NCBI GenBank assembly: GCA_021810565.1
Contig: JAJZIM010000003.1
Span: forward strand, 8,911-72,910
Length of the DNA stretch: 64,000 nt
Reading direction: 5' to 3'
Source: Bacillota bacterium
Lineage (GTDB): Bacteria; Bacillota; Sulfobacillia; JAJZIM01
A program made the translations under genes and the position numbers. Shown piece by piece: positions 17,638-25,777 of the stretch. The notes beneath the pieces are model-generated. The model was given only the letters and a program-made list of their open reading frames with translations, had not been told where the DNA came from and did no database searches. Position 1 is the first letter of the stretch; each line of letters opens with the position of its first letter.

Positions 17638-20692
<3,055 letters not shown>

Positions 20693-20706
20693 GGGAGGGA
20701 GCGGGG

Positions 20707-21324
20707 ATGGACGAGGCCTTCCGGGAGGCGGTCACCCCCTACGAGGATGCAGCGGCGGGCGTGCCCTGGCCCTGGAGCGTGCCCGACGGGGCTTGGAGCT
20801 GGGAGCTCTTCTGCGCCCTGCCCGAGGACGGCAACCGCTACGAGGTGGTCGGGGGGAGGCTGGAGATGGGCCCGCCGCCGCGAGTGATCCACCAGAGAGT
20901 GAGCGACAACCTATATGCCTTGGTGCGGGAATGGTCCCGGCGCACCGGGGCCGGAGAGGTCTTCGTTGCCCCCCTGGCGGTGATCCTCCCGAACACGGCA
21001 AGCTATTTGGAACCGGACCTCCTCTTCGTCGCCCGGGAGCACCGGTCAATCATCACCCCCGACCACGTGCAGGGGCCACCGGATTTGGTGGTGGAGATCC
21101 TGTACCCCGGCAGCGTCCGGGCCGACTGGGTGGACAAGAAGGCGGTGTACGAAAAGGCGCTCGTCCCCCGCTACTGGGTGGTGGATCCCGAGGCGAAAAC
21201 CCTGACCGCCTTCCGGTTGGCCGAGGGCAGGTACCAACTGGAGGGGCGGTGCACCGGCGAGGCATCCTTCACGCCGGAGGGCCTCCCGGACCTCGCGGTG
21301 GATCTGGCCGCGGTGTGGGACTGA
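20707..21324 (+). CDS. Uma2-family (DUF820) endonuclease, copy 1
   Basis: 'WSWELFCALPEDGNRYEVVGGRLEMGPPP ... PDLVVEILYPGS ... DKKAVYEKALVPRYWVVDP'. Confidence 0.8.
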   Translation: MDEAFREAVTPYEDAAAGVPWPWSVPDGAWSWELFCALPEDGNRYEVVGGRLEMGPPPRVIHQRVSDNLYALVREWSRRTGAGEVFVAPLAVILPNTASYLEPDLLFVAREHRSIITPDHVQGPPDLVVEILYPGSVRADWVDKKAVYEKALVPRYWVVDPEAKTLTAFRLAEGRYQLEGRCTGEASFTPEGLPDLAVDLAAVWD

Positions 21325-21334
21325 CGGGGAGCCC

Positions 21335-21661
21335 ATGAGTTCCGCCTGCCGCGGCGGGCGCGGGGACCATGGTTTACACGTGGATGATATGATCGTGGGG
21401 GGAGGTGCGTCGGCGATGGACGAGGAGGACCGCGCGGCGATCGCAGAAAAGTACCCCGAGGAATGGATAGCGCGCGCAGTCACGGCCGAAGACGAGATCG
21501 GGCAGACCTTGCGGGGGCGGGTCATAGCCCACGGCAAGGATCGGCAAGCAGTCAGCGCAGCCGAGCTTAGCTTCAGCAGGGATCACCTGGAAGCACTGAC
21601 CCACCTCTTTTTCAACGGACCGGTTCTCGACCAGGGCGCGGATGGGGTGGTGGGTTTCTAG
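21335..21661 (+). CDS. DUF5678-like small protein (likely start at ATG ~21416)
   Basis: 'AEKYPEEWIARAVTAEDEIGQTLRGRVIAHGKDRQAV' fits the DUF5678 pattern. RBS GGAGGTG lies 8 nt before the ATG at 21416. Confidence 0.45.
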   Translation: MSSACRGGRGDHGLHVDDMIVGGGASAMDEEDRAAIAEKYPEEWIARAVTAEDEIGQTLRGRVIAHGKDRQAVSAAELSFSRDHLEALTHLFFNGPVLDQGADGVVGF

Positions 21662-21674
21662 CGTGCACCACCGC

Positions 21675-22053
21675 ATGCCGTTCATGGCGGCCCGCGACAT
21701 GGTGCTGCTCGAGGTGACCTTCGGCGCATCTGCCAGGCGCCCCCTGCTGGTGGATACCGGGGGCTTTGTTGACCACCATCTGCTGCCTGACCGCCCGGAG
21801 GCTGGGGTTGGATATCGAAAGGCCACGGCGATGGAGGCAACTGATGGGGATCGATGGGCAAAGCCAGCGGGTGCCGGTGGTGGATCCGGGTCGTGTGGTC
21901 ATCGGCTCTTTGGTACTGCCGCTGTCGGAAGTCGTGGTTACGGATCTGTTGGCAGTTTTCAGGGCGGACGGCTTGCTGGGCCTCGATGCGTTGCAGCACT
22001 TTCGTGTCACCTTGGAGTTTGACACTCGCTATCTGGTGCTGCGGCCTCTTTGA
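21675..22053 (+). pseudogene. retropepsin-like (clan AA) aspartic protease interrupted by a +1 frameshift in a G5 run at the catalytic DTGA motif
   Basis: Frame A reads '...ARRPLLVDTGG'. Frame B reads 'LLTTICCLTARRLGLD...VVIGSLVLPLSEVVVTDLLAVFRADGLLGLDALQHFRVTLEFDTRYLVL'. Deleting one G of GGGGG (21759-21763) gives 'LLVDTGALLTTICC...'. Confidence 0.7.
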
Positions 22054-22116
22054 CTGCCTTGAAAAACGGCAACTTTGCATCGGCGGTGACATTCACTGGA
22101 CTGCGGGGAGGGATGA

Positions 22117-22740
22117 GTGGTGGACGAGGGCTTCCGGGAGGCGGTGACCCCTTACGAGAGCGGTGAGGCGGGAGGGATTCCCTGGCCTTGGAGCGTGCCC
22201 GACGGGGCGTGGAGCTGGGAGCTCTTCTGCGCCCTGCCCGAGGACGGCAACCGCTACGAGGTGATCGGGGGGAAGCTGGTCATGAGTCCGCCGCCGAAGA
22301 CGGGGCATCAAGCGGTGAGCATGCAGTTGGCGCTGCAGTTGGGCCACTGGGCGAAGCGCACCGGGGCCGGGAAGGTCTTCGCCGCGCCGTTGGCGGTGGC
22401 CCTCCCGAACACGGGGAGCTACCTGGAGCCGAACCTCCTCTTCGTCGCCCGGGAGCACCGGTCGATCATTACCCCCGACAACGTGCAGGGGCCACCGGAT
22501 TTGGTGGTGGAGATCCTGTCCCCCGGCAGCCTCCGGGCCGATTGGGTGGACAAGAAGGCGGTGTACGAAAAGGCGCTCGTCCCCCGCTACTGGGTGGTGG
22601 ATCCCGAGGCGAAAACCCTGACCGCCTTCCGGTTGGCCGAGGGCAGGTACCAACTGGAGGGGCGGTACACCGGCGAGGCATCCTTCACGCCGGAGGGCCT
22701 CCCGGACCTCACGGTGGATCTGGCCGCGGTGTGGGACTGA
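22117..22740 (+). CDS. Uma2-family (DUF820) endonuclease, copy 2 (paralog of 20707..21324)
   Basis: Near-identical 3' half at the nt level. N-terminal half diverged. Confidence 0.8.
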   Translation: MVDEGFREAVTPYESGEAGGIPWPWSVPDGAWSWELFCALPEDGNRYEVIGGKLVMSPPPKTGHQAVSMQLALQLGHWAKRTGAGKVFAAPLAVALPNTGSYLEPNLLFVAREHRSIITPDNVQGPPDLVVEILSPGSLRADWVDKKAVYEKALVPRYWVVDPEAKTLTAFRLAEGRYQLEGRYTGEASFTPEGLPDLTVDLAAVWD

Positions 22741-22757
22741 AGGAGGGGGGGAAACAA

Positions 22758-23363
22758 ATGAGCAAGAAGCGGGGCGCGGATCTGGTGTATCAGTTCAAGG
22801 TGACTTTGCAGGGCGTCCGGCCGCCCATCTGGCGGCGCATCCAGATCTTAGGGGACTGCACCTTCTGGGACCTGCACGTGGCGATTCAGGACGCCATGGG
22901 CTGGGAGATGGAGCACCTGCACGCCTTCAACCTGCCCTCCCTGGGCCGCGACACGGACATCGGCGTGCCGGAGGAAGAGGAGGGCTCCTTCGGCGCGTTC
23001 TTGGACGGGGTGTGGGGGCGAAGGACGCTGCCCGGCTGGAAGGTGCGCGTGGCCGACTACTTGAACTTGAACCAACCCGTGGCTTTTTACACCTACGATT
23101 TTGGCGACGACTGGGTGCACAAGCTGAAGCTGGAGAAGATCCTGCCGCGGGAGGAGGGGCCATATCCCCGCTGCCTGGCCGGCAAGCGGGCCTGCCCGCC
23201 CGAAGACTGCGGGGGCGTGGGAGGATATGCGGCGCTGGTGGCGGGGGAGTACGAGGAGGGTGAGGAGCTGTTCGGGACTTTTGATCCGGAGGCCTTCGAC
23301 CCGAACGGCGTGTCCTTCAACGATCCGGCGGCGATGCTCCAGTTCGTGCTTGCCGAGAGGTAG
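22758..23363 (+). CDS. plasmid pRiA4b ORF-3-like family protein
   Basis: 'LVYQFKVTLQGVRPPIWRRIQILGDCTFWDLHVAIQDAMGWEMEHLHAF' and 'CPPEDCGGVGGY' are characteristic of this family. Confidence 0.7.
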   Translation: MSKKRGADLVYQFKVTLQGVRPPIWRRIQILGDCTFWDLHVAIQDAMGWEMEHLHAFNLPSLGRDTDIGVPEEEEGSFGAFLDGVWGRRTLPGWKVRVADYLNLNQPVAFYTYDFGDDWVHKLKLEKILPREEGPYPRCLAGKRACPPEDCGGVGGYAALVAGEYEEGEELFGTFDPEAFDPNGVSFNDPAAMLQFVLAER

Positions 23364-23371
23364 CCGACGGT

Positions 23372-23587
23372 GTGCCGGGCGGGCCGCCTGTCGGCGTCCG
23401 GGGGAAGCGGGGGATTCCCCGGCCTTGGAGTGTGTCCGACGGGGCGTGGACTTGGGAGCTCTTGTGTGCCCTACCCGATGGCCCCGACCGCTGGGAGACG
23501 ATCGGCGGAGGCAGGGGAGATGAGCCAGCCGCCGCAGGTGAGCCACCGGAGGGCTTCGCGCCAAGCCATGATGTAGGTATATTATGA
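23372..23587 (+). pseudogene. Uma2-family endonuclease N-terminal remnant
   Basis: 'GIPRPWSVSDGAWTWELLCALPDGPDRWETIGG' matches the N-termini of the two Uma2 genes, then degenerates. Confidence 0.5.
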
Positions 23588-23595
23588 GGTGAGCA

Positions 23596-23832
23596 ATGAT
23601 GGATAAAGGGATGGTCCGCAAGCAGCTGTATCTTGCCGCGGAGCAGGAGATGGCCCTGAAGCGGCGGGCCACGGAGGAGAGGACGTCGGAAGCGGCGGTT
23701 GTCCGCAAGGCCTTGGGCCTGTATTTGGCCCGCAGGCCTCGGGGGAGGCGAAACCCACTGCGGGAACTGGTGGGAGCGGTGAGGTTGGGTGGCCAACACG
23801 CCTCCGAACGGCATGACGACGCCATCTATTAG
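23596..23832 (+). CDS. ribbon-helix-helix antitoxin (VapB/CopG-like)
   Basis: 'KQLYLAAEQEMALKRRATEERTSEAAVVRKAL'. Overlaps the downstream PIN gene. Confidence 0.65.
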   Translation: MMDKGMVRKQLYLAAEQEMALKRRATEERTSEAAVVRKALGLYLARRPRGRRNPLRELVGAVRLGGQHASERHDDAIY

Positions 23833-24262
23833 CCAGGCGATCTTCATCTACACCTCCGCCTTCGTTGCCCTCTTGGCGGCGGACGACGAACATCACGAGG
23901 CTGCAGGGAGCTTTTGGGCGCCTTTGGCGGACACGGTGGTGCAGGAAACCACCTGGGGTGCGGTCAGCGAGACCTATACCGGGTGCCGGGTGCGGACGCG
24001 GGATGACCGATTGGCTGGGCGGTGGCTGGATCAGGTGGAGGCGGGGGAGAGCATCGGTTATCCGCAGGCGCTGCTTCCGGATCAACCCAGGGATCGACTG
24101 GCTCGTTCCTCGCCGCGAAAGTTCAGCGACCAGAACCCATCGTACGTGGACGCCGTCAGCTTGGCCGTGCCGCAGGTGCAAGAGATCGACGCGGCTTTTC
24201 CCTTCGATCGGCAGCTTTCCTTGGGCGGCGTGCCCCTGCTGCCGGGCTCCCTCGGCTCGTGA
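23813..24262 (+). CDS. PIN-domain toxin (VapC-like)
   Basis: 'IFIYTSAFVALLAADDEHH' and 'SYVDAVSLAV...IDAAFPFD' show the conserved acidic residues. Confidence 0.65.
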   Translation: MTTPSISQAIFIYTSAFVALLAADDEHHEAAGSFWAPLADTVVQETTWGAVSETYTGCRVRTRDDRLAGRWLDQVEAGESIGYPQALLPDQPRDRLARSSPRKFSDQNPSYVDAVSLAVPQVQEIDAAFPFDRQLSLGGVPLLPGSLGS

Positions 24263-24295
24263 CCCCGACCGGTTTTTCGGCAAGGAGGACACTGC

Positions 24296-24682
24296 GTGAA
24301 CCGGGAGGACGTGCTGACGGAATTTTTGACCTCTTGGGAAAGACGGCTGGCGGCGCACCGTGCCCAACTGCGGGCCGAGGCCAAACGGCTGGCCGCAGGC
24401 TTCGCCCGGGCGGGGGCCCAAAGGGTGCTGCTCTTCGGTTCGACCGCCTGCGGCCGGGCCGGTTTCGCCAGCGACCTGGACCTGGTGGTGGTAGCCCCGG
24501 TGGACCCTGAAATTCCCGTGCCGCACCGCATGAGAGACGTCTTGACCGCATTGAACCCGCGGTCCCCGGTGGACCTTTTGGTCTACACGCCCTCGGAGTG
24601 GGAGCGGCTGCAAGACGAGCGGCGTTTCGTGCGGGAGGAGTTGGCGGAGAAGGGAGTGGTGCTCTACGAGCGAGCTGGATGA
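24296..24682 (+). CDS. nucleotidyltransferase-domain protein (MNT-type antitoxin)
   Basis: 'VLLFGSTACGRAGFASDLDLVVV' is a GS...DxD pol-beta NTase motif. Confidence 0.75.
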   Translation: MNREDVLTEFLTSWERRLAAHRAQLRAEAKRLAAGFARAGAQRVLLFGSTACGRAGFASDLDLVVVAPVDPEIPVPHRMRDVLTALNPRSPVDLLVYTPSEWERLQDERRFVREELAEKGVVLYERAG

Positions 24683-24686
24683 CGCG

Positions 24687-25127
24687 TTGCGCTGGGTCGA
24701 GCAGGCGGCCATGGACCTGGAAGTGGCGACGAAGCTTGCGGAAACGCATCCCAACGTGGGCTGCTTCATGGCCCAGCAGGCCGCCGAGAAGGCGATGCAA
24801 GGGGTGCTGCTGGCCTTGGGGGAGAAGCCTGCGCGCACCCACTCCGTGGTCGATCGGTATGACCGGCTGCCCGAACTGCAGGGGCTTCTGGGTGAGCGGG
24901 ACGGCTTTTTGCTGCTCGACCTGTACTACATCCCCACCCGCTATCCGGACGCCTTGCCGGGGGCGATCCCCGCCCGGCACTTCTCCGCTGGCCAGGCCAG
25001 GCAGGCGGCGCGCCTGGCGGAGCAGGCGGTGGGCGCCTGTGCTCAGGCGCTGGAGCGCATGCGGGAACGCTTCACCGCCGGTTCGCCTCAAGGTGGGGAA
25101 ACCACCGAAACCTCGGGCCCGGGATAG
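24687..25127 (+). CDS. HEPN-domain protein (partner of MNT)
   Basis: 'DLEVATKL...GCFMAQQAAEKAMQGVLLALG...HSVVD' is a HEPN helical core. Directly downstream of the MNT gene. Confidence 0.7.
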   Translation: MRWVEQAAMDLEVATKLAETHPNVGCFMAQQAAEKAMQGVLLALGEKPARTHSVVDRYDRLPELQGLLGERDGFLLLDLYYIPTRYPDALPGAIPARHFSAGQARQAARLAEQAVGACAQALERMRERFTAGSPQGGETTETSGPG

Positions 25128-25368
25128 CGCCGGCGGCTTTCGGGTGACCGGAGGCTCCCAACGCGGGGCGGTGGCCGTGATCACGGCCTCGCTCGGCAGG
25201 GGCCCGGGGGGCCGAAGCGGCGGCAGCGGCCTGCCCGCCGGGCCTATCCGGCCATCGACCGCGCGTTCCTCACCCAGGACCGCCGGGCCGCATGCGTTGC
25301 GGCAGGGGCTAATAAGCCGGGAGGAACCGGTTCGGCAAGGCCCCAAGGCGCCGCGGCGGATCGGACGC

Positions 25369-25777
25369 CTACAGGGGCTCCAGCTCGGCGCCCAAGCGTC
25401 GGAAATGCGTTTCGTCGAAGGTGCAGATGCGGGGCTTGCCCGAAGCCTGGGCGTGACGAAAGAGGTAGGTGTCGACGAAGTCCAGGTTGTGGCGGCGAAA
25501 GTCCTCCAGGGCGGCCAGCAGCACCTCCCGCTCCTCCGGCTGCACCCCTGCCGCGCCGCGGAAGTCGCCGAGGGTGGTCGAGATCGCGTCGCGCTCATGC
25601 CCGTAAAAGGAGTCCAGCACCCACACCACCTCCGCCACGGTCAGGGGAGAAACGAGCAGGATGAGGGTGCCATCTTCCGCCCGGTGAAGAGGCCGGCGGC
25701 GCGCCGGAAGCGGTCCGCCTGATCCCGCAGCAGGTACCGGAGGATCACGTTGGCGTCCAGCCAGAGCGTCGCCTTCA
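25369..25777 (-). pseudogene. PIN-domain (VapC-like) gene with an internal frameshift
   Basis: N-terminus 'MKATLWLDANVILRYLLRDQADRFRRAAGLF' in one frame. 'AEDGTLILLVSPLTVAEVVWVL...NLDFVDTYLFRHAQASGKPRICTFDETHFRRL' in another. Junction ~25665-25695. No antitoxin ORF between it and panB. Confidence 0.55.

What the first reader, a model, noticed from the sequence alone, without database searches (positions are those of the whole stretch)
21675..22053. Retropepsin-like aspartic protease broken by a G5 homopolymer exactly at the catalytic DTGA motif
Reading frame A gives '...ASARRPLLVDTGG' then runs out of sense. Frame +1 continues with 'LLTTICCLTARRLGLD...GLLGLDALQHFRVTLEFDTRYLVL', a textbook clan-AA (Asp_protease_2) body. 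Removing one G from the GGGGG run at 21759-21763 yields '...PLLVDTGALLTTICC...', restoring the canonical V-D-T-G-A active-site motif and a single ~125 aa ORF. So the slip site coincides with the catalytic Asp-Thr-Gly. The locus is preceded by a DUF5678-like small gene and flanked by Uma2 endonuclease paralogs. The alternatives are a sequencing error in a homopolymer, a recently inactivated gene, or a slippage-prone contingency switch that controls a potentially toxic protease.
Basis: seen in the sequence. Interest (0 to 1): 0.65.

Follow-up and report, generated by a model that had tools for sequence, protein, structure and literature searches.

The report
Dead retropepsin-like protease gene (frameshift)
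A small bacterial aspartic-protease gene in a Thermaerobacter genome was killed by one extra G inserted in its catalytic Asp-Thr-Gly codons; the lesion is real, inherited by all related strains, and the gene is decaying, so it is an ordinary pseudogene and not a genetic switch.

Summary
At window 21759-21763, a G5 run in GAT ACC GGG GGC splits a retropepsin-like protease into a frame-0 head (21663-21761, ...PLLVDTG) and a +1-frame body (21763-22053, ALLTT...LVLRPL*). Deleting one G gives a 125-129 aa protein that passes the Pfam cut-offs for gag-asp_proteas and Asp_protease_2.

It is not a sequencing error. Nineteen related records, forming four allelic lineages of a Thermaerobacter sp., all carry G5. 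No intact allele appeared in a 5.8-billion-cluster protein search.

It is not a switch or a programmed frameshift. About 30 distinct homologues read DTG[A/S/C] in frame, and the nearest have ACC GGG GCN (G4). G5/G6 runs in the same phase occur in pyrG. The next 0-frame codon, GGC, is the commonest Gly codon. Substitutions in the protease and its upstream 81-aa partner are neutral (19N:5S, 22N:2S), against 4N:31S in the neighbouring OADA gene, and they hit conserved residues.

The locus is therefore a fixed, decaying pseudogene. The ancestral unit was a widespread two-gene cassette (small α/β protein plus free-standing retropepsin-like protease). It resembles the untested PADLOC defence candidate PDC-M08 and breaks independently in other lineages. 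Interest is low.

The parts
21416..21661 (+). Intact 81-aa ORF, the small partner gene of the cassette (ATG 21416, stop TAG 21659-21661). It is predicted as an α-β-β-α-β domain with a disordered hydrophobic C-terminal tail. It is under relaxed selection.
   Evidence: A homologous ~80-88 aa gene lies directly upstream of the protease in nearly all related loci. The AF2 model has pLDDT 83 and no PDB fold match. Substitutions are 7N:0S and 13N:1S between lineages. Lineage-specific changes hit consensus positions.
21663..21761 (+). Pseudogene head in frame 0: VHHRMPFMAARDMVLLEVTFGASARRPLLVDTG. It includes the catalytic Asp-Thr-Gly (GAT ACC GGG, 21753-21761). The probable original start is GTG 21663, two bases after the partner gene's stop.
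   Evidence: It aligns with the N-termini of intact homologues. It hits family HMM positions 4-36.
21759..21763 (+). G5 run. One of these G is a derived insertion into an ancestral G4 (ACC GGG GCN), and it causes the frameshift.
   Evidence: G5 is present in the window and in 19 related loci. The nearest intact homologues L020 and L022, and L025 (intact at this site but broken elsewhere), have G4. L023/24 have GGT GCG. All other homologues are in frame.
21763..22053 (+). Pseudogene body in the +1 frame: ALLTTICCLTARRLGLD...DGLLGLDALQHFRVTLEFDTRYLVLRPL*. It carries the DGLLGL and RVTxEFD motifs of the family. Gene callers annotate only its last 69 codons (ATG 21844).
   Evidence: (P0001-P0004 are 69-aa fragments). 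It hits family HMM positions 35-129 with E 2e-34.
21642..22022 (+). Spurious 126-aa frame-0 ORF that runs on after the frameshift. It is not a gene.
   Evidence: It has no Pfam match (protein 6). Long open alternative frames are expected at 67% GC.
20707..21324 (+). Uma2 paralogue a (context, not part of the cassette).
   Evidence: Pfam Uma2 E 2.2e-35. It forms a direct repeat with paralogue b at a spacing of 1416 nt. No Uma2 gene lies next to the cassettes elsewhere.
22117..22740 (+). Uma2 paralogue b (context, not part of the cassette).
   Evidence: Pfam Uma2 E 1.8e-34. It shares 83% aa identity with paralogue a.

Best explanation
The locus is a fixed, decaying pseudogene. An ancestor of this Thermaerobacter sp. 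population carried a two-gene cassette: an ~81-aa α/β protein followed immediately by a ~129-aa free-standing retropepsin-like (clan AA, homodimeric) aspartic protease. A single G was inserted into the G4 run formed by the Gly and Ala codons of the catalytic D-T-G-A motif (ACC GGG GCT became ACC GGG GGC T). This separates the catalytic Asp segment from the rest of the fold, so no active protease can be made.

The lesion was inherited by all sampled descendants. Since then both cassette genes have drifted neutrally.

Shown: the frameshift, its fixation, the ancestral G4 state, the neutral substitution pattern, and the conservation of the cassette elsewhere.

Inferred: the intact cassette is a toxin-antitoxin-like or anti-phage module, with the protease as effector and the small protein as its partner or inhibitor. 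On that reading this copy decayed 'effector first'.
For: (1) The break is exact, and the repaired protein passes two Pfam gathering cut-offs. The family profile hits solved retropepsin-like domains: DDI1 2e-10 and ApRick 3e-9.

(2) G5 is present in all 19 related loci, from NCBI MAGs, ENA, JGI and Logan assemblies of many samples. They form four allelic lineages, one of which has a synonymous ACC>ACT change next to the run.

(3) Searching the repaired protein against 5.8 billion protein clusters returned only 69-aa C-terminal fragments for this orthologue. The nearest intact protein has 48% identity.

(4) About 30 distinct homologues read DTG[A/S/C] in frame. The closest use ACC/ACT GGG GCN, which is G4.

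(5) Cassette substitutions are 19N:5S (window vs L011) and 22N:2S (vs L014). These do not differ from the neutral expectation of 74% N. They differ from the neighbouring OADA gene (4N:31S, Fisher p=2e-7) and from Uma2 (p=0.02).

(6) Each lineage has its own replacements at family-conserved positions. In the protease, L011 has LLVDTG>LPVDTG and TLEFDTRY>TWEFDICC. In the small protein, L014 has H39>N, and the window has LE>RA and HP>HL.

(7) Independent breaks occur at other sites in other lineages. L025 has a 1-nt deletion in a C4 run relative to L020. L035/36 and one copy in L053 are also broken. L033, L034 and L041 are remnants.

(8) GC3 of the cassette is 0.72-0.76, against 0.95 in housekeeping neighbours.

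(9) The cassette sits in a ~4.4-kb accessory island between OADA and panB. The island also holds 2.3 Uma2 copies, PRiA4_ORF3 and an MNT/HEPN pair.

(10) The protease hits PADLOC PDC-M08B (1.8e-7; the intact homologue P0005 scores 5.4e-10). Eight of 14 small-partner homologues hit PDC-M08A.
Against: No second disabling mutation (stop or further indel) has accumulated in either segment in any of the four lineages. At only 3-5% divergence this is expected and not informative.

The small partner ORF is full length in all lineages.

Consensus assemblies cannot exclude a minority G4 allele within populations.

No expression data are available.

The defence or TA role of the intact cassette is inference only. 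PDC-M08 is an untested candidate, and the window's own small protein does not hit PDC-M08A.
Confidence: 0.88

Rival explanations
1. Programmed +1 ribosomal frameshift (or transcriptional slippage) on GGG GGC. Peptidyl-tRNA-Gly re-pairs from GGG (21759-61) to GGG (21760-62), and decoding resumes at GCU. This would yield exactly ...VDTGALLTT... and so a low dose of a possibly toxic protease.
For: A +1 slip on G GGG G allows perfect re-pairing and would restore the canonical DTGA. G5 is retained without further disabling mutations in four lineages. A GGUGGA Shine-Dalgarno-like stretch lies 3 nt upstream of the ACC GGG codons, although it is dictated by the Val-Asp codons.
Against: None of about 30 homologues uses a frameshift at this site; all are in frame. 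The 0-frame A-site codon GGC is the commonest Gly codon (43.5 per thousand), so there is no hungry or stop codon. Identical-phase GGG GG(G) runs occur in pyrG, Uma2 and PRiA4 without consequence. The downstream RNA fold is unremarkable, z=-1.2. Substitutions on both sides of the run are neutral and hit conserved residues. Five G is far below the run length known for transcriptional slippage (established knowledge).
Confidence: 0.04
2. Phase-variable contingency locus. The G tract expands and contracts during replication and toggles the protease ON (G4/G7) and OFF (G5).
For: The break is in a homopolymer. The gene lies in an accessory island of TA or defence-type genes.
Against: Tract length is invariant (G5) in 19 assemblies across four lineages, and no ON allele appeared in a 5.8-billion-cluster protein search. 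The window contains 165 G5 and 78 C5 runs, including runs in essential genes, so G5 is not a specialised hypermutable tract here. Known contingency tracts are usually 7 or more bases (established knowledge). Neutral evolution of the coding sequence shows that no ON state is being selected.
Confidence: 0.04
3. Sequencing or assembly error in a homopolymer; the real gene is intact (G4).
For: Homopolymer indels are a common artefact of some platforms.
Against: The same G5 is seen in 19 loci assembled separately from different samples and projects, on four diverged haplotypes. Gene callers in all of them produce only the 69-aa fragment. The coding sequence shows the decay expected after true inactivation.
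Confidence: 0.02

Closest known systems
Pfam PF13650 Asp_protease_2 / PF13975 gag-asp_proteas (clan AA retropepsin-like, single-domain bacterial members; solved relatives are ApRick/APRc of Rickettsia conorii, 5c9b, and the DDI1/DDI2 RVP domains)
   Same: The repaired protein is a full-length ~125-130 aa retropepsin-like domain. It has hydrophobic-hydrophobic-D-T-G-A, a second DGLLGL motif and a C-terminal β-strand. It passes both Pfam cut-offs. The family profile hits DDI1 and ApRick at E about 1e-9 to 1e-10.
   Different: As encoded, the window copy is frameshifted between Gly and Ala of DTGA and cannot fold. It is free-standing and lacks the membrane or UBL/UBA modules of APRc and DDI1. It always has a small upstream partner gene, which those proteins lack.
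PADLOC 'phage defence candidate' PDC-M08 (two-gene cassette CAS_00054, FAM_03167>>FAM_00414; Payne et al., bioRxiv 10.1101/2024.01.29.577857)
   Same: The architecture and order are the same: a small protein (A) followed by a ~127-aa protease-like protein (B). The repaired protease hits PDC-M08B at 1.8e-7 and the intact homologue P0005 at 5.4e-10. Eight of 14 small-partner homologues hit PDC-M08A, the only PADLOC family they hit.
   Different: The matches are weak and remote. The window's own small protein does not hit PDC-M08A. PDC-M08 itself is untested. The window copy is a pseudogene.
NCBIfam TIGR02281 clan_AA_DTGA
   Same: It has the same DTGA-type active-site motif and domain length. The hit spans profile positions 25-108 of 121.
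   Different: The score is 27.6 bits against a cut-off of 57.95, so it is not a member.
Pfam PF18929 DUF5678
   Same: There are recurrent sub-threshold hits over the 'RGRVIAHG' stretch. One family member, Osc7112_5500 of Oscillatoria nigro-viridis, is named 'DUF5678 domain-containing' by UniRef.
   Different: No member passes the gathering score. Only 5 of 56 reach E<=0.1, and the best is 0.0067. The family is longer (~80-88 aa against a 49-position model). It is effectively unmodelled in Pfam.
Type II toxin-antitoxin modules decaying 'toxin first'
   Same: It is a compact two-gene operon with the small gene first and stop and start adjacent or overlapping. Its distribution across phyla is patchy. 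It occurs as isolated inserts between housekeeping genes and as tandem arrays. It is frequently pseudogenised. In four independent broken copies the protease is broken and the small gene is intact.
   Different: No toxicity or neutralisation has been shown. No protease-type toxin family of this kind turned up in the literature searches. Four of four 'protease first' is not significant, because the protease gene is the larger mutational target.

Membership tests
Clan AA retropepsin-like aspartic protease (Pfam Asp_protease_2 / gag-asp_proteas) | Sequence passes the Pfam gathering threshold over the whole domain | tested here: met
   The repaired 125-aa protein scores 37.0 bits on PF13975 (cut-off 28.2) and 34.4 bits on PF13650 (cut-off 24.3). 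The unrepaired C-terminal ORF alone falls below both cut-offs (22.8 and 19.7 bits).
Clan AA retropepsin-like aspartic protease (Pfam Asp_protease_2 / gag-asp_proteas) | Catalytic hydrophobic-hydrophobic-Asp-Thr/Ser-Gly-Ala/Ser motif contiguous with the rest of the fold in a single reading frame | tested here: not met
   As encoded, the frame changes between Gly and Ala of L-V-D-T-G-A. The motif is restored only by deleting one G. All homologues have it in frame.
Clan AA retropepsin-like aspartic protease (Pfam Asp_protease_2 / gag-asp_proteas) | Homology to structurally solved retropepsin-like domains | tested here: met
   The family profile A1 hits DDI1 3s8i at 2e-10 and ApRick 5c9d/5c9b at 3e-9 across positions 12-128.
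Clan AA retropepsin-like aspartic protease (Pfam Asp_protease_2 / gag-asp_proteas) | Homodimerisation and proteolytic activity | not testable with these tools
   This needs biochemistry on an intact homologue such as P0005 or the L020 protein.
NCBIfam TIGR02281 clan_AA_DTGA | Score above the curated cut-off (57.95 bits) | tested here: not met
   27.6 bits.
PADLOC PDC-M08 (candidate defence cassette) | Component B (protease-like) matches the PDC-M08B model | tested here: met
   E 1.8e-7 and 29.2 bits for the repaired protein; 5.4e-10 for the intact homologue P0005.
PADLOC PDC-M08 (candidate defence cassette) | Component A (small upstream protein) matches the PDC-M08A model | tested here: inconclusive
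   The window's 81-aa protein has no hit even at E<=10. Eight of 14 homologues of it do hit, best E 8e-4, and this is the only family hit.
PADLOC PDC-M08 (candidate defence cassette) | Anti-phage activity | not testable with these tools
   The authors themselves list the PDC systems as untested.
Pfam DUF5678 (upstream gene) | Score above the gathering cut-off (23.2 bits) | tested here: not met
   15.3 bits, E 0.018. Only 5 of 56 family members reach E<=0.1, and none passes the cut-off.
Programmed +1 frameshift site (prfB/antizyme type) | Slow 0-frame A-site codon (stop or rare codon) next to a slippery P-site codon, with the shift conserved in homologues | tested here: not met
   The A-site codon GGC is the commonest Gly codon. 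No homologue has the shift. Same-phase G5/G6 runs occur in pyrG.
Phase-variable homopolymer (contingency) locus | Tract-length polymorphism among strains or assemblies, with ON and OFF alleles both present | tested here: not met
   G5 is present in the window and all 19 related loci. No ON allele was found in the protein database. Within-sample read heterogeneity was not testable.

The most novel reading that the evidence does not exclude
The G5 at the catalytic codons is a retained translational throttle. Rare +1 slippage of tRNA-Gly on GGG-G would give trace amounts of an otherwise toxic retropepsin-like effector, in a two-gene TA or defence cassette of the PDC-M08 kind. What does not exclude it: perfect +1 re-pairing is possible, and no second disabling mutation is seen in four lineages. 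What argues strongly against it: neutral substitutions, in-frame homologues, and the absence of any stimulatory context.
Probability: 0.03. Interest if true: 0.7.

Novelty: new member of a known kind. Interest (0 to 1): 0.14.

Why it matters
The frameshift itself matters little. It is a textbook homopolymer-indel pseudogene. Its position in the catalytic motif follows from Gly (GGG) plus Ala (GCN) codons forming one of only five homopolymer runs of 4 or more bases in the gene. For annotation, the 69-aa 'hypothetical protein' called in all these MAGs should be labelled as a fragment of a frameshifted retropepsin-like protease pseudogene.

The side result is of modest wider interest. The ancestral unit is a conserved, uncharacterised two-gene cassette, consisting of an ~80-88 aa α/β protein with no Pfam model or PDB fold match plus a free-standing retropepsin-like protease. 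It is spread across Bacillota, Cyanobacteria and Armatimonadota. It sometimes occurs in tandem arrays, it is often broken, and it is remotely related to the untested PADLOC candidate PDC-M08. An intact copy, not this one, would be the place to test whether bacterial retropepsin-like proteases act as TA or defence effectors.

Tried and rejected
(1) Sequencing error: rejected by 19 concordant assemblies.

(2) Programmed frameshift or transcriptional slippage: rejected. I looked for conservation of the shift in homologues, a rare or stop A-site codon, avoidance of same-phase G runs in essential genes, a stable downstream RNA structure and purifying selection, and found none of them.

(3) Phase variation: no tract-length variation was found.

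(4) An RNA element or tRNA at the site: there was no Rfam hit at E<=1 in 20500-25500 and no tRNA in the window. The single 'terminator-like' hairpin reported at 21747-21760 is below the chance expectation.

(5) Uma2 as part of the cassette: rejected, because no Uma2 gene lies next to cassettes in other loci.

(6) DUF5678 membership of the small gene: not met.

(8) Mobile-element carriage: there were no tblastn hits in plasmid or phage collections, no PHROG hit, and no relative among viral contigs.

(9) Literature: searches for DUF5678, PF13650/PF13975, and retropepsin-like plus toxin-antitoxin found nothing relevant to this bacterial cassette.

(10) A genome-contig scan with the 22-sequence alignment failed for lack of a conserved stretch. 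It was rerun with six sequences.

(11) L060 looked like another truncated protease (96 aa called), but on reading the DNA it is intact.

Full report
OBSERVATION

The sequence is as described. At window 21750-21767 the + strand reads GTG GAT ACC GGG GGC TTT, with exactly five G at 21759-21763.

Frame 0 has candidate starts at GTG 21663, ATG 21675 and ATG 21684. It encodes ...FGASARRPLLVDTG and then runs on to 22022 as a 126-aa ORF with no Pfam match (protein 6). The +1 frame encodes ALLTTICCLTARRLGLD...DGLLGLDALQHFRVTLEFDTRYLVLRPL*, ending at 22053.

Deleting one G gives a 125-aa protein, or 129 aa from GTG 21663. It passes the Pfam gathering cut-offs for gag-asp_proteas (37.0 against 28.2 bits) and Asp_protease_2 (34.4 against 24.3). 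An HMM built from 22 family members matches the frame-0 piece at profile positions 4-36 and the +1 piece at positions 35-129. The break is therefore exactly at D-T-G|A. The family profile also hits solved retropepsin-like domains: DDI1 at 2e-10 and Rickettsia ApRick at 3e-9.

IS IT AN ARTEFACT?

No. A search with the repaired protein against 5.8 billion protein clusters returned only 69-aa C-terminal fragments for this orthologue. These are P0001-P0004, at 90-100% identity, and one is named Thermaerobacter sp. There was also one intact 131-aa relative at 48% identity.

Fetching the DNA behind those fragments gave 19 loci from NCBI MAGs and from ENA, JGI and Logan assemblies of many different samples. 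They fall into four allelic lineages:
- window/L016-19
- L001-10
- L011-12
- L014-15

All share the synteny pyrG - OADA - Uma2 - 81-aa gene - protease - Uma2 - PRiA4_ORF3. Every one has the same G5 at the same place. In L014/15 the adjacent Thr codon has changed synonymously (ACC>ACT) while the G5 is retained.

The frameshift is therefore real. It is fixed at consensus level and is older than the divergence of these lineages, which have pS of 0.07-0.09 at the adjacent OADA gene.

ANCESTRAL STATE

Scans of GTDB genomes and JGI metagenomes with a family alignment gave 36 further loci. In about 30 distinct homologues the motif is read in frame as D-T-G-A/S, or D-T-G-C in one locus (L031).

The nearest intact relatives use ACC GGG GCG (L020, 56% identity) and ACC GGG GCA (L022). 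L025 has ACT GGG GCG at this site, although it is broken elsewhere. All three have a G4 run. L023/24 (61% identity) use ACT GGT GCG. Their peptide PLLVDTGAL(I/M)TT matches the repaired window peptide PLLVDTGALLTT.

The window state is therefore a derived single-G insertion into a G4 run formed by the Gly and Ala codons. The repaired gene has only five homopolymer runs of 4 or more bases (C5, G4 three times, T4). An indel at a homopolymer thus had roughly a one-in-five chance of landing in the catalytic motif, so the coincidence is not remarkable.

IS THE GENE STILL UNDER SELECTION?

No. Nei-Gojobori counts between lineages give pN/pS of:
- 0.04-0.05 for OADA
- 0.25-0.35 for the Uma2 genes
- 0.5-1.1 for the two protease segments
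- above 1 for the upstream 81-aa gene (7N:0S and 13N:1S)

Pooled over the cassette, the counts are 19N:5S (window against L011) and 22N:2S (window against L014). These are indistinguishable from the neutral expectation of 74% non-synonymous sites (binomial p=0.82 and 0.06). They differ significantly from OADA (4N:31S, Fisher p=2e-7) and from Uma2 (p=0.02).

The replacements hit family-conserved positions, and different ones in each lineage:
- L011, protease: LLVDTG>LPVDTG and TLEFDTRY>TWEFDICC.
- L014, protease: FDTRY>FDPRY. Small protein: H39>N, a nearly invariant residue.
- Window, small protein: EWIALEVT>EWIARAVT, DHP>DHL, LDP>LDQ and VVVVF>GVVGF.

GC3 of the cassette is 0.72-0.76, against 0.95 in the housekeeping neighbours. 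This fits foreign origin, drift, or both.

RECODING OR PHASE VARIATION?

A +1 slip of tRNA-Gly on G-GGG-G would re-pair perfectly and would yield DTGA, so I tested this idea.

The evidence against recoding is:
- No homologue has a shift at this site.
- The 0-frame A-site codon GGC is the most frequent Gly codon, at 43.5 per thousand.
- G5 and G6 runs in the same codon phase occur in pyrG (18076, 18706), in both Uma2 genes and in PRiA4_ORF3.
- The 97 nt downstream fold no better than shuffled sequences, z=-1.2.
- There is no purifying selection on either side of the run.

The evidence against phase variation is:
- The tract never varies among the window and the 19 related loci.
- The window holds 165 G5 and 78 C5 runs.
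- No ON allele exists in the protein database.

No Rfam family or tRNA lies in the area.

WHAT THE GENE WAS PART OF

The 81-aa ORF at 21416-21661 stops 2 nt before the protease's probable GTG start. It has homologues directly upstream of the protease, usually with overlapping stop and start, in nearly all related loci.

A profile search found at least 500 members of 80-88 aa, all labelled 'hypothetical', in Armatimonadota/Fervidibacter, Cyanobacteria (Microcoleus, Oscillatoria, Microcystis) and Bacillota. In the three long genomic records I looked up, each is followed by an Asp_protease_2 gene, and the pair sits alone among unrelated housekeeping genes. In Oscillatoria PCC 7112, for example, it lies inside the men gene cluster. 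L052-L055 carry tandem arrays of three pairs, and L021 has two small genes before one protease.

The small protein is predicted with confidence (pLDDT 83) as α-β-β-α-β with a disordered hydrophobic C-terminal tail. It has no PDB fold match (best Foldseek E 0.5). It does not belong to DUF5678 by Pfam's threshold, and only 5 of 56 members reach E<=0.1.

In PADLOC, the protease hits PDC-M08B (1.8e-7; the intact homologue scores 5.4e-10), and 8 of 14 small proteins hit PDC-M08A as their only match. PDC-M08 is a two-gene cassette (CAS_00054, FAM_03167>>FAM_00414, with a tabulated count of 381). It is one of 145 untested 'phage defence candidates' derived by guilt-by-embedding (Payne et al., bioRxiv 10.1101/2024.01.29.577857).

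Nothing related was found on plasmids, on phages, in PHROGs or in viral contigs.

DECAY IS RECURRENT IN THIS FAMILY

Several other copies are broken, each at a different site:
- L025 differs from its 95%-identical relative L020 by a 1-nt deletion in a C4 run, which splits the protease at profile position ~75.
- L035/36 are frameshifted near the C-terminus relative to L030.
- The third copy in L053 is split relative to L052.
- L033, L034 and L041 retain only C-terminal remnants.

In each of the four independently frameshifted cassettes (window, L025, L035/36, L053) the small gene is still a full-length ORF. This pattern resembles 'toxin-first' decay of TA modules. It is not statistically significant, because the protease gene is the larger target.

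MECHANISM (COMMITTED VIEW)

Shown: a +1G insertion in the DTGA codons, fixed in the lineage; neutral drift since then; and a conserved two-gene ancestral cassette.

Inferred from established knowledge: retropepsin-like proteases are obligate homodimers, and each monomer supplies one DTG (as in the DDI1 and ApRick structures). A polypeptide that changes frame after DTG lacks the flap, the second hydrophobic-Gly motif and the C-terminal interface strand. The 69-95-aa C-terminal ORF lacks the catalytic Asp. No active enzyme can therefore be formed.

Inferred with lower confidence (~0.3-0.4): the intact cassette is a TA-like or abortive-infection-type module. In this view the small protein restrains or partners the protease. 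The copy here lies in a ~4.4-kb accessory island between OADA and panB, which also holds two Uma2 paralogues plus a fragment, PRiA4_ORF3 and an MNT/HEPN pair. It was disarmed by loss of the effector.

VERDICT

The feature is an ordinary pseudogene of a known protein family, so interest is low (0.14).

The uncharacterised cassette it derives from is the more interesting object, and it should be studied in an intact copy.

Noticed in passing
L013, L020-L032, L035-36, L040, L043-L060 (e.g. L056 4001-4662; L058 4001-4712): A conserved, unannotated two-gene cassette occurs across Bacillota, Cyanobacteria and Armatimonadota. It pairs an ~80-88 aa protein (no Pfam model, no PDB fold match) with a ~130-155 aa free-standing Asp_protease_2 protein. 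It sits as isolated inserts among housekeeping genes and is remotely related to the untested PADLOC candidate PDC-M08.
   Followed up: partly
L052 2090-4349; L053, L054, L055 likewise: Three small-gene and protease pairs lie in tandem in one locus. In L053 the third protease copy is itself frameshifted relative to L052.
   Followed up: partly
L025 2043-2560 vs L020 2866-3384: An independent pseudogenisation of the closest intact relative. A 1-nt deletion in a C4 run (CAACCCCGG>CAACCCGG) splits the protease mid-domain, while the small partner gene stays intact. L035/L036 are similarly frameshifted near the C-terminus.
   Followed up: yes
L021 2241-2992: Two diverged copies of the small partner gene lie in tandem upstream of a single intact protease gene.
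   Followed up: no
window 20707-21324, 22117-22740 and 23405-23533: Two full Uma2 paralogues (83% aa identity) flank the cassette as direct repeats 1416 nt apart. One 300-nt stretch is 93% identical, which may reflect gene conversion. A third, degraded Uma2 N-terminal fragment lies downstream of PRiA4_ORF3. Both full copies hit the PADLOC single-gene candidate PDC-S03.
   Followed up: partly
window 22758-25127: The rest of the accessory island between OADA and panB holds several genes. These are a PRiA4_ORF3-family gene (22758-23363), two overlapping ORFs without Pfam hits (23596-23832 and 23789-24262, which may be a small TA-like pair), and a nucleotidyltransferase/HEPN (MNT-HEPN) pair (24296-24682 and 24687-25127).
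   Followed up: partly
L011 5706-6210: In one allelic lineage an IS200/IS605-type element (Y1 transposase plus OrfB/TnpB) lies just downstream of the island. The window lineage has the MNT/HEPN pair in this region.
   Followed up: no
L058/L059 758-4712 vs window 17650-22053: In a Fervidibacter (Armatimonadota) contig the intact cassette also lies a gene or two downstream of pyrG (CTP synthase), as in the window. This is probably coincidence and was not tested.
   Followed up: no
window 21416-22053: GC3 of the cassette (0.72-0.76) is far below that of neighbouring housekeeping genes (0.95). This fits horizontal acquisition, AT-biased drift after inactivation, or both.
   Followed up: partly
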